23,374 bases of DNA from UHGV virus genome UHGV-0281963; one strand, 5' to 3'. Below are positions 1 through 1,820 of this stretch, piece after piece (positions within the stretch are counted from its first letter, which is position 1; every line of letters begins with the position of its first letter). The translations under genes were made by a program, and so were the position numbers. This DNA is from a virus. The notes under the pieces were generated by a model that did no database searches, had not been told where the DNA came from, and saw only the letters and a list, made by a program, of their open reading frames with translations.

Positions 1-1820
1 CAATTAAACCAACCGACGTTTGCCAACCGTCGGCAGAGTACTGTATCTCGTAAAGATAACCAGTAAGTGCCTCCAGACGATCTAACGCATTATCCAGTTT
101 TACCAGATTTCGCTTGTTGCGTTTATCCGAACGGATCTGAACATCGTTAAATGAGCCGTTTCCGGTCACCGTCAAATTGCCATTAATACCACCATTAAAA
201 GTTTGTGCCTGAGTCCATGTATTGGCAGTAGTAAGCAGTTCTGTTCCTTGCCCGGGGGCTCCAGTGTCTCCCTTCGGTCCCTGTGGCCCCGCCGGACCTG
301 CTGGTCCAGCTACTCCCGGATCACCTTTATCGCCTTTCGGCCCCGGCGCACCTGCCGGACCTGCTGGTCCAGCCACCCCCGGATCGCCTTTGTCACCTTT
401 TGGCCCCTGTGCGCCTGCCGGGCCTGCGGCTCCCGTATCCCCTTTCGGTCCCTGTGGGCCTGCCGGACCCGTATCGCCCTTGTCTCCCTTCGGGCCGGGA
501 ACGCCACCACCTGCAGCAACCTCTTCTGCCTTCTGTCTCGCCGCCTTGGCCTCATCCATTGCCGCCTTCACAGCCTTCGACGTGGCAGCCTTTGTTTCGT
601 CATTACTGGCAGTATCACTACTTAGCTGCACAATTCCCTTCTGTGCCGTCGTCGCGTCCACCACATTTGCTGCGCTGCCCGCCGGACCAGGCTCCCCGCG
701 GGGGCCCTCAGGCCCAGCTTCGCCTCGTTCACCTTTCGGACCTGCCGGACCTGTCGCACCGGCATCTCCTTTCGGTCCCTGCGGCCCCGCCGGGCCTCTC
801 TCTCCTGCAGGTCCGCGTAGCCCCTGCTCTCCCTGAGGCCCTCGTTCTCCCGGCTCACCTTTTTCACCTGCGGGACCGGCTGGTCCGGTGTCACCTTTAG
901 GTCCCGCATCACCTTTCGGCCCGGGTGGTCCTCCCGGGTCTCCGGGGGCTCCTTTTTCACCTCTGGCCCCGGTTTCACCTCGTGGACCAGCAGGCCCCTG
1001 AATCCCCCGCTCTCCTTGCGGCCCCACCGGTCCTGTTTCACCGCGTGGTCCTTGTGCGCCTTGTGGACCTGTTTCTCCACGAGGGCCTGCATCACCTTTC
1101 GGTCCGGTATCACCTTTAGGGCCTCTGGCATTCTCTGCCATACGCCTGGCCTCTTCAGCACTAACCGTAGCAGCCTCAGCACGTTTAAGAACGTCTCCGG
1201 CGGCCTCATGAGCCACTCTGGCGGTTTCAGCATGTTGTCTGGCATCATTCGCGTCTGCTGCCGCGGCCTTTTCAGACTCGCATGCCCGGGTCGCTGCTTC
1301 TGCAGCTTCACTGGCTTTTTGTCCGGCTTCAGCCGCCCTGCTGGTTGCCGTCTTTGCACTGTCAGATGCACTCTTCGCACTGGCTGCTGCACTGTCTTTT
1401 GACTGTGTGGCCTGAGTGTTTTTTGTCGCCGTGTCTTCATTCAGGCGACGAATAGTGGCAAGGTCATCAGCCACATTATTCTGTATCTGCCGGAAATCTG
1501 TCAGCAGTTCTCCGGGTATGCTCACCTCAACAAGACTGCGGCGTAACAGCATATTGAGCGTCACCGTACTTTCGGTCCCCTCAATACGCACACGTCCGTA
1601 GACAGCAGTCTTCCCTTTCACCGTCACCGAAACCGCATACTCCCCCGGATCCATCGTCATTCCGTAATATCCACCTTCACGGGTCACTGCCGACGCACTG
1701 GTGCCGCTGAGCGCATCCGGTGAAACTGTCAGCGCCGTCAGGGTAATATTTGCTCCTGATAAGGGTATCCTTTTTCACAGGTTTGGGGCCGATATAGACA
1801 ACGGCAATTTTTTCGCTCAT
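1..1820 (-). CDS. side tail fibre protein with collagen-like Gly-X-Y repeats; 3' end lies beyond window start; reading frame broken near the 5' end (possible pseudogene)
   Basis: My translation of the minus strand gives long Gly-X-Y runs ([40 protein letters not shown]... and [29 protein letters not shown]...) plus a KGIVQLSS motif as in lambda Stf-type fibres. ATG at 1820-1818 ([17 protein letters not shown]) stops at TGA 1679-1677; the long open frame is +1 relative and open to position 1. Confidence 0.7.

What the first reader, a model, noticed from the sequence alone, without database searches (positions are those of the whole stretch)
1660..1820. Tail-fibre gene: start-codon frame and collagen frame are out of register
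The ATG at 1820 with a good N-terminus ([17 protein letters not shown]) runs into TGA at 1679-1677. The long Gly-X-Y frame is open from about 1774 to the window edge but has a stop at 1777-1775 upstream. Splicing the two frames by skipping one base gives a coherent N-terminal domain (…[24 protein letters not shown]…[21 protein letters not shown]) resembling the lambda Stf N-terminus. The required +1 shift lies in the 1680-1774 interval, which begins at a T5/A5 homopolymer (1772-1776). Possible explanations are a sequencing or assembly indel, a pseudogenised fibre in a defective prophage, or a slippage-dependent or phase-variable fibre.
Basis: seen in the sequence. Interest (0 to 1): 0.5.

Follow-up and report, generated by a model that had tools for sequence, protein, structure and literature searches.

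The report
Deletion scar in a defective prophage
The apparent one-base frameshift at the start of a phage tail-fibre gene is really the scar of a 1,645-base deletion that joined the first 20 codons of a different virion gene, out of frame, to a tail-fibre gene that lost its own start; this is ordinary decay of a dormant E. coli prophage.

Summary
The sequence facts are correct. An ATG at 1820 (- strand) opens a 47-codon ORF ending at TGA 1679-1677. The collagen/tail-fibre frame is open from 1774 to the window edge and is blocked upstream by TGA 1777-1775.

The cause is not a one-base slip at the A5 run. Every intact relative breaks at the same two points. Window 2439-1753 matches the capsid end, a 129-aa gene and the first 68 nt of a 153-aa gene (933W L0118 / Sp5 ORF64 type). 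Window 1761-1 matches the tail-fibre gene from its nucleotide 50 onward. Between them 1,645 bp are missing (3x548+1, hence the frame offset). The lost DNA holds most of the 153-aa gene, a 187-aa virion gene, the 216-aa adaptor gene and fibre codons 1-16 (MSVVVSGTLKSPDGEA).

The A5 run has five A's in all 13 intact and all 4 deleted loci. The ATG at 1820 belongs to another gene.

The same junction occurs in at least three other independent assemblies, so it is not a sequencing error. A second deletion of 10,198 bp at 2439-2434 removed the lysis, terminase, portal and most capsid genes.

Verdict: pseudogenised fibre in a deletion-decayed, stx-negative 933W-like prophage. Ordinary, low interest.

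The parts
1677..1820 (-). 47-aa chimeric ORF. Codons 1-20 (1820-1761) are the true N-terminus of the 153-aa L0118/Sp5-ORF64-type gene (phrog_482). From 1759 it reads the tail-fibre gene out of frame until TGA 1679-1677.
   Evidence: In 13 intact loci the same ATG opens a 153-aa ORF. The exact 47-aa product is on record on a single contig (Logan), and I also found the same ORF in the DNA of two ENA contigs.
1753..1761 (-). Junction of the 1,645-bp deletion (D2). The exact shared dinucleotide TA is at 1761-1760, inside an imperfect 9-nt match TAYCRGGAG (7 of 9). The left homology ends at 1753 and the right homology starts at 1761 in every comparison.
   Evidence: 1645 = 3x548+1. The break-points are identical against 12 of the 13 intact loci; 933W itself (L001) breaks at 1760.
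1771..1775 (-). A5 run, read as Lys16-Lys17 of the L0118-type gene. It has normal length and is not the site of the lesion.
   Evidence: the A-run is 5 in all 17 loci examined, 13 intact and 4 deleted.
1..1759 (-). Tail-fibre gene remnant (933W L0121 / Sp5 ORF67 type), retained from codon 18 and running off the window edge. It has a truncated PF08400/CarboxypepD_reg N-domain, an Ala/Ser-rich stretch, collagen Gly-X-Y blocks, Phage_fiber_2 and the start of the Peptidase_S74 chaperone domain. Its own start codon and ribosome-binding site are missing.
   Evidence: 99% identical to intact E. coli prophage fibre genes from their nucleotide 50 onward.
1658..1660 (-). First in-frame ATG of the fibre remnant, which gene callers use as its start (MTMDPGEY...). 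An AAGGTGG Shine-Dalgarno-like motif lies at 1677-1671 and overlaps the stop of the 47-aa ORF. The product would lack 50 residues of the N-domain.
   Evidence: genes were called at L004 2070, L007 8886 and L009 3032; the product from this ATG matches no Pfam N-domain.
1871..2260 (-). Intact 129-aa virion structural gene (933W L0117 type, phrog_486).
1840..1858 (-). Terminator-like hairpin plus T6 between the 129-aa gene and the ATG at 1820. It is conserved in intact phages.
2315..2439 (-). Last 125 nt of the N4-gp56-type major capsid gene, a remnant left by the second deletion.
2434..2439 (-). Junction of the second deletion (D1, 10,198 bp), with TA / TGG-TA microhomology. It removes most of a DUF1378 gene, then the DUF826, holin, lysozyme, Rz, heptose(II)-phosphate phosphatase, both terminase, portal and 335-aa head genes, and most of the capsid gene.

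Best explanation
The window (- strand) is the late end of a stx-negative, 933W-like short-tailed prophage (Sepvirinae type) of Escherichia coli that has decayed by deletion. An illegitimate recombination or replication-slippage event occurred between two short, imperfectly matching sites (TAYCRGGAG, exact overlap TA) lying 1,645 bp apart. It removed codons 21-153 of the 153-aa gene, the whole 187-aa virion gene, the whole 216-aa SU10-type adaptor gene and the first 16 codons of the tail-fibre gene. Because 1,645 is not a multiple of three, the surviving ATG of the 153-aa gene now reads the fibre gene in the wrong frame for 27 codons and stops. The fibre frame has no start codon of its own until an internal ATG at 1660. 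The fibre is therefore a pseudogene, and the prophage cannot build virions. In the window's lineage a second 10,198-bp deletion also removed the lysis, packaging, portal and capsid genes.

Shown: the break-points, the deletion sizes, the normal A5 length, and recurrence of the junction in other assemblies.
Inferred: the deletion mechanism (microhomology-mediated), the order of events (D2 before D1), and loss of function.
For: 1. Break-points. blastn of the window against intact prophages gives two collinear blocks. Window 2439-1753 equals capsid end, 129-aa gene and the first 68 nt of the 153-aa gene. Window 1761-291 equals the fibre gene from nucleotide 50. Both are about 99% identical, with 1,645 bp missing between them. 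The break-points are the same in 12 of the 13 intact loci; against 933W itself the left block ends at 1760.
2. Base-level alignment shows the switch at CCCTTA|TCAGGAG.
3. All 13 intact loci have an A-run of 5, a 153-aa ORF from the same ATG, and a separate GTG fibre start (VSVVVSGTLKSPDGEAISGANITL). That start lies 1,655 bp downstream in 11 of them, 1,654 bp in L014 and 2,968 bp in L018. All 4 deleted loci also have an A-run of 5.
4. All ten distinct contexts returned for the identical 129-aa protein show the canonical order 129-153-187-216(SU10_adaptor) followed by the fibre-gene start; a full fibre ORF was called in nine. The index lists that protein in 4,039 blocks of the collection.
5. The same junction is present in Logan SRR26892737 (L004, 2 samples, with an intact capsid gene) and in ENA ERZ28658076 (L007) and ERZ27266607 (L009).
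6. Pfam: the intact fibre N-terminus scores 39 bits against PF08400 over profile positions 1-131. The lambda Stf N-terminus (PDB 9e7m_Ta) aligns from residue 1 of the intact protein.
7. Mondal et al. 2016 (PMC5155283) studied Sp5. ORF65 and ORF67 (tail fibre) are essential for morphogenesis, and the ORF64 deletion mutant has markedly reduced infectivity. By gene order these correspond to the deleted or truncated genes here.
Against: - No read-level data for the window's own source were available.
- The exact undeleted parent across D2 was not retrieved. The closest intact loci are 99.0-99.6% identical, not 100%.
- Whether the remnant is translated from ATG 1660, possibly by reinitiation after the 47-aa ORF, was not tested, so 'pseudogene' is an inference from the missing N-domain and missing partner genes.
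- The carriers of the junction may all be one clone, so recurrence proves the junction is real but not that the events were independent.
Confidence: 0.95

Rival explanations
1. A single-base sequencing or assembly indel in or near the A5 run splits one intact tail-fibre gene into two frames.
For: The frames differ by exactly +1 and a homopolymer sits at the overlap.
Against: The A5 run is 5 in 13 intact and 4 deleted loci. The sequence upstream of 1761 is homologous to a different gene, and 1,645 bp are missing. The identical junction occurs in at least three other assemblies from different projects. A 2-9 nt microhomology is too short to cause a k-mer misassembly.
Confidence: 0.01
2. Programmed +1 ribosomal or transcriptional slippage on the A5 run, or phase variation of the run, produces a fibre with the [17 protein letters not shown]-terminus.
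For: tRNA-Lys could in principle re-pair +1 on AAAAA. The resulting fusion frame is open for 591 or more codons.
Against: The arrangement exists only in rare deletion derivatives. In all intact relatives the run encodes in-frame Lys-Lys of another protein with no overlapping downstream frame. The run length is invariant. From general knowledge, five A's is short for transcriptional slippage or contingency loci. The fusion lacks the first strand of the PF08400 domain. The adaptor and other virion genes the fibre would need are gone.
Confidence: 0.01
3. The truncated fibre is still made, starting at ATG 1660 and perhaps by termination-reinitiation after the 47-aa ORF, and serves some function for the host or for incoming phages. 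Candidates are a reservoir of receptor-binding modules or a receptor decoy.
For: The fibre frame has no internal stops over 591 codons. The SD-like AAGGTGG at 1677-1671 overlaps the upstream stop, 10 nt before the ATG. Q antiterminator and late-operon continuity are preserved. Gene callers predict this ORF.
Against: Carriers are 99.9% or more identical, so the open frame is explained by recency and not by selection. The product lacks half of the virion-attachment domain and matches no N-domain family. There are no expression data.
Confidence: 0.04

Closest known systems
Tail-fibre gene of short-tailed Stx phages (933W L0121; Sp5/VT2-Sakai ORF67, ECs1228)
   Same: 88-99% DNA identity from fibre nucleotide 50 onward. 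Same domain series of PF08400-type N-domain, collagen repeats, Phage_fiber_2 and Peptidase_S74. Same upstream neighbours, the capsid and the 129-aa gene.
   Different: It lacks codons 1-16 and its GTG start. The three genes normally between the 129-aa gene and the fibre are absent or truncated. The prophage carries no stx.
Lambda side tail fibre Stf N-terminal domain (Pfam PF08400; PDB 9e7m chain Ta)
   Same: The intact orthologue matches PF08400 over profile positions 1-131 at 39 bits. It aligns with lambda Stf residues 1-78.
   Different: The window copy starts at profile position 15 and scores just below the gathering cut-off. Lambda is long-tailed, whereas this module is from a short-tailed phage type.
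Lambda PaPa stf frameshift (own knowledge: Hendrix and Duda 1992; a one-base deletion splits stf into orf401 and orf314)
   Same: A tail-fibre gene of a laboratory or resident lambdoid phage inactivated by a frame disruption.
   Different: There the lesion is a true single-base change within one gene. Here it is a 1,645-bp deletion that fuses two different genes.
Deletion-decayed cryptic prophages of E. coli (own knowledge: Rac, DLP12, Qin and similar)
   Same: Loss of essential morphogenesis and lysis genes, while early-region, recombination and toxin-antitoxin genes are kept.
   Different: The decay here is very recent. Relatives 100% identical up to the D1 junction are still intact beyond it.

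Membership tests
Single-base homopolymer indel (sequencing error or natural frameshift mutation) | Run length differs by one base from intact orthologues, with homology otherwise continuous across the site | tested here: not met
   A5 in 17 of 17 loci. Homology switches from one gene to another at 1761/1760, with 1,645 bp missing.
Programmed ribosomal frameshift site | Slippery site at the overlap of two frames of one gene product, conserved among orthologues | tested here: not met
   In 13 intact loci the run lies inside a 153-aa ORF read in frame 0, and the fibre gene lies 1,654-2,968 bp away (1,655 bp in 11 loci) with its own GTG start.
Programmed ribosomal frameshift site | Recognised +1 context (rare or stop codon in the A site with an upstream SD, as in prfB) or -1 heptamer X XXY YYZ leading into the productive frame | tested here: not met
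   The sequence is G AAA AAG G. A -1 shift enters a frame that closes after 13 codons (TGA at 1739-1737). The productive shift would be +1, with no stop or rare codon in the context (direct reading).
Phase-variable contingency homopolymer | Tract length polymorphic among close relatives | tested here: not met
   Invariant A5 in 17 loci spanning 94-100% identity.
Pfam PF08400 phage_tail_N (lambda Stf-type fibre N-terminus) | Score at or above the gathering cut-off of 26.6 bits | tested here: not met
The intact orthologue scores 39.0 bits and meets it.
Pfam PF08400 phage_tail_N (lambda Stf-type fibre N-terminus) | Alignment from the first residues of the profile | tested here: not met
   The window and the spliced product align from profile position 15 only. 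The intact orthologue aligns from position 1.
933W-like (Sepvirinae) short-tailed phage late module | High DNA identity to 933W / Sp5-type phages over the structural genes | tested here: met
   94-96% over the 129-aa gene region in 186 phage records. 88-93% over the fibre 5' part. 99% to E. coli prophages.
933W-like (Sepvirinae) short-tailed phage late module | Canonical gene order capsid, 129 aa, 153 aa, 187 aa, 216-aa adaptor, fibre | tested here: not met
   The 153-aa gene is truncated after codon 20, the 187-aa and 216-aa genes are absent, and the capsid is reduced to 125 nt. The order is canonical in all ten contexts returned for the identical 129-aa protein.
Defective (deletion-decayed) prophage | Loss of genes shown to be essential for morphogenesis in a characterised relative | tested here: met
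   The ORF65 and ORF67 homologues (essential in Sp5, PMC5155283) are deleted or truncated. Terminase, portal and capsid are lost in D1.
Defective (deletion-decayed) prophage | The lesion is real and heritable, being the same junction in independent data sets | tested here: met
   L004 (Logan, 2 samples), L007 and L009 (ENA) carry the identical 37-nt junction.
Defective (deletion-decayed) prophage | No particle production or lysis on induction | not testable with these tools
   Needs induction experiments.

The most novel reading that the evidence does not exclude
The deletion created a new translational arrangement. The 47-aa chimeric ORF terminates inside an SD-like motif 17 nt before ATG 1660. 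On this reading the Q-dependent late transcript of the crippled prophage delivers an N-terminally truncated, collagen-like trimeric fibre fragment. That fragment would be retained because it acts as a BamA-receptor decoy or as a recombination reservoir for host-range modules of incoming Stx phages.
Probability: 0.03. Interest if true: 0.4.

Novelty: already known. Interest (0 to 1): 0.07.

Why it matters
It matters mainly as a correction. A two-frame signature next to a homopolymer looks like a frameshift or a slippage site, but comparison with intact relatives shows a gene-fusing deletion. For annotation, three consequences follow:
- the ATG at 1820 must not be used as the fibre start;
- the fibre should be flagged as a 5'-truncated pseudogene;
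- the prophage should be called defective.

There is also a small biological point. This stx-negative 933W-type prophage lineage is caught in stepwise decay. The 1,645-bp deletion occurs alone in one assembly (L004), and occurs together with a 10.2-kb deletion in the window and two others (L007, L009). Relatives identical to the window up to the 10.2-kb junction remain intact beyond it.

Tried and rejected
- Exact search for the 37-nt junction in GTDB species-representative genomes, IMG/VR viral contigs and JGI metagenome contigs found 0 hits each. The junction is therefore rare there. It was found only through exact-protein look-ups.
- megablast across the junction against 5,426 complete E. 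coli genomes and 50,697 phage records found no record covering 80% or more of the query. No complete genome in those sets carries it.
- PDB sequence searches for the deleted 153-aa and 187-aa proteins gave no hits, so their roles rest on PHROG labels and on Mondal et al. 2016.
- I considered whether the resemblance of [15 protein letters not shown] to the lambda Stf start MAVKISGVLKDGTGKPV is meaningful. I rejected it because the Pfam profile does not align those residues and the peptide is the conserved N-terminus of another protein.
- I looked for stx and tRNA genes between Q and the esterase and found none.
- I did not fold the region for frameshift-stimulating structures, because the junction is a recent deletion scar and such a test would be uninformative.

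Full report
**1. Observation**

On the - strand an ATG at 1820-1818 opens a 47-codon [50 protein letters not shown], ending at TGA 1679-1677. A second frame, offset by +1, is open from 1774 to the window edge. It runs for 591 codons: [20 protein letters not shown]..., then collagen Gly-X-Y blocks. It is closed upstream by TGA 1777-1775. Its Pfam content is Collagen, Phage_fiber_2 and the start of Peptidase_S74. The descriptive part of the finding is therefore correct.

**2. What is really there**

megablast of window 2300-1400 against phages and complete E. coli genomes gave hundreds of hits. All stopped at query position 541-548, which is window 1760-1753, and none spanned the site. A query starting at 1790 matched annotated tail-fibre genes, but only from window 1761 downward.

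Direct blastn against an intact prophage (E. coli 23CRST047, locus L002) showed two blocks:
- window 2439-1753 equals L002 5862-6548;
- window 1761-291 equals L002 8185-9655.

In L002 the first block covers the end of the N4-gp56-type capsid gene, a 129-aa gene and the first 68 nt of a 153-aa gene (CDS 6481-6942). The second block begins at nucleotide 50 of the tail-fibre CDS (8136-10169). The missing stretch is 1,645 bp, which is 3x548+1 and accounts for the +1 frame offset.

Base-by-base, the window follows the 153-aa gene through ...GGATACCCTTA and then the fibre gene from TATCAGGAGCAAAT.... The exact overlap is TA (1761-1760), inside an imperfect 9-mer TAYCRGGAG with 7 of 9 matches. Twelve of the 13 intact loci give the same break-points, 1753 and 1761; against 933W itself (L001) the left block ends at 1760.

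**3. The homopolymer is innocent**

In all 13 intact loci (933W, 23CRST047, NCCP15648 and ten further E. coli contigs):
- the A run is 5;
- the same ATG opens a 153-aa [35 protein letters not shown]...;
- the fibre gene has its own GTG start further downstream, encoding [27 protein letters not shown] (1,655 bp away in 11 loci, 1,654 bp in L014 and 2,968 bp in L018).

In the four deleted loci the run is also 5.

**4. The 'coherent' spliced N-terminus**

The intact fibre N-terminus (135 aa) matches Pfam PF08400, the lambda Stf-type N-terminus, at 39 bits over profile positions 1-131. It also matches CarboxypepD_reg. It aligns from residue 1 with the N-terminus in PDB 9e7m chain Ta, deposited as 'Tail fiber protein', whose sequence I recognise as lambda Stf.

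They score 25.8-25.9 bits, below the 26.6-bit cut-off. The [16 protein letters not shown] part is foreign, and the true first strand (MSVVVSGTLKSPDGEA) is deleted. A product starting at the internal ATG 1660 matches no N-domain family at all.

**5. What was lost**

Compared with the NCCP15648 prophage (L003), the deletion removes:
- codons 21-153 of the 153-aa protein (phrog_482);
- a 187-aa virion structural protein (phrog_437);
- the 216-aa SU10-type adaptor (PF24175, phrog_399);
- fibre codons 1-16.

In the related phage Sp5, Mondal et al. 2016 (PMC5155283) found that ORF65 and the tail fibre ORF67 are essential for morphogenesis, and that the ORF64 deletion mutant has markedly reduced infectivity. 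By gene order (capsid ORF62 to fibre ORF67, matching L0116 to L0121) these are the genes affected here. That mapping is my inference.

**6. Context**

The whole window (- strand) is collinear with the about 36-kb stx-negative 933W-like prophage of NCCP15648. The early half appears intact:
- exo, bet, gam and a RecE-family gene;
- CI-like repressor;
- replication genes;
- toxin-antitoxin modules;
- nin genes;
- Q antiterminator;
- a NanS-p-like SASA esterase.

A second deletion of 10,198 bp, with its junction at 2439-2434, joins the first 74 nt of a DUF1378 gene to the last 125 nt of the capsid gene. It removes the holin, lysozyme, Rz, both terminase subunits, the portal and the 335-aa head gene. 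There are no tRNA genes in the window, and no ORF scanned between Q and the esterase is stx-like.

**7. Real, not an artefact**

The exact 47-aa chimeric protein is on record on a single contig: Logan contig L004 (SRR26892737, that contig seen in 2 samples). L004 is 99.95% identical to the window across the junction, but its capsid gene is intact, so D2 is present there without D1.

Two ENA metagenome assemblies, L007 (ERZ28658076) and L009 (ERZ27266607), carry both deletions with the identical junction. Three other contigs (L005, L006, L008) are 99.99-100% identical to the window right up to the D1 junction and then continue into intact lysis, terminase and portal genes.

The canonical order 129-153-187-216 followed by the fibre-gene start holds in all ten distinct contexts returned for the identical 129-aa protein; a full fibre ORF was called in nine of them. 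The deleted arrangement is therefore a rare, recent, heritable derivative. The most economical order of events is D2 first and then D1; this is an inference.

**8. Mechanism and rivals**

Best explanation (confidence about 0.95): a microhomology-mediated deletion scar in a decaying prophage, leaving a 5'-truncated fibre pseudogene and a meaningless 47-aa chimeric ORF.

- A sequencing indel is excluded by sections 2, 3 and 7.
- Programmed slippage or phase variation is excluded for practical purposes. The run is invariant and lies in-frame in another gene in all intact relatives, and the -1 frame closes after 13 codons (TGA 1739-1737). The required +1 shift has no recognised context. The fusion would lack the first strand of the domain and the partner proteins.
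- A residual possibility remains. The remnant could be translated from ATG 1660, because an SD-like AAGGTGG at 1677-1671 overlaps the stop of the 47-aa ORF. It could then have some secondary use. The uninterrupted frame is, however, explained by the recency of the deletion, since carriers are 99.9% or more identical.

**9. Novelty and score**

Prophage decay by internal deletion is well known. A fibre inactivated by a frame disruption has a classical precedent in lambda PaPa stf (own knowledge), although that is a true one-base change. Nothing here lies outside known kinds. Interest is low (0.07). The value is in correcting the annotation and in showing that the 'frameshift at a homopolymer' reading is wrong.

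Noticed in passing
window 2434-2439 (- strand): A second, larger deletion junction (10,198 bp relative to the NCCP15648 prophage). It joins the first 74 nt of a DUF1378 gene to the last 125 nt of the capsid gene. The holin, lysozyme, Rz, both terminase subunits, the portal and the 335-aa head gene are gone. Microhomology is TA / TGG-TA. Contigs L005, L006 and L008 are 99.99-100% identical to the window up to this point and intact beyond it.
   Followed up: yes
L004 (Logan SRR26892737_389) 1-3332: This contig carries the 1,645-bp deletion junction downstream of an intact 404-aa capsid gene. The small deletion therefore exists without the 10-kb one, which suggests stepwise decay with D2 before D1.
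   Followed up: partly
window 1840-1858 and 2281-2298 (- strand): Two G+C-rich hairpins followed by T-runs (terminator-like), one after the capsid remnant and one after the 129-aa gene. Both lie in DNA shared with intact 933W-type phages, and the hairpin at 1858-1840 is seen conserved in the alignment. They are presumably read through by Q-modified polymerase.
   Followed up: partly
window 1-470 (- strand): Collagen-like Gly-X-Y blocks of the fibre differ in copy number between the window and its orthologues: blast pieces overlap around 291-433, and complete fibre proteins are 625-677 aa in relatives. The last ~100 nt of the window, in the Peptidase_S74 chaperone region, diverge from the NCCP15648 fibre. 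This is mosaicism at the receptor-binding end.
   Followed up: no
window 5336-6118 (- strand), ORF 5972..5379: Between Q (6583..6104) and the NanS-p-like esterase (4545..2647), where Stx phages carry tRNAs and stx, this prophage has about 780 bp absent from NCCP15648. It encodes a 197-aa DnaD_N-domain ORF. No tRNA or stx genes were found.
   Followed up: partly
window 8950-10237: Moron-like toxin-antitoxin genes sit inside the prophage early/nin region: Fic/Doc family (10237..9743, -), RelE family (8950..9327, +) and an HTH partner (9375..9692, +).
   Followed up: no
L018 6449-8412 and L014: Other relatives show independent damage in the same module. In L018 the SU10-type adaptor gene is split by an insertion of about 1.3 kb. 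L014 has one-base length differences and several uncalled genes.
   Followed up: no
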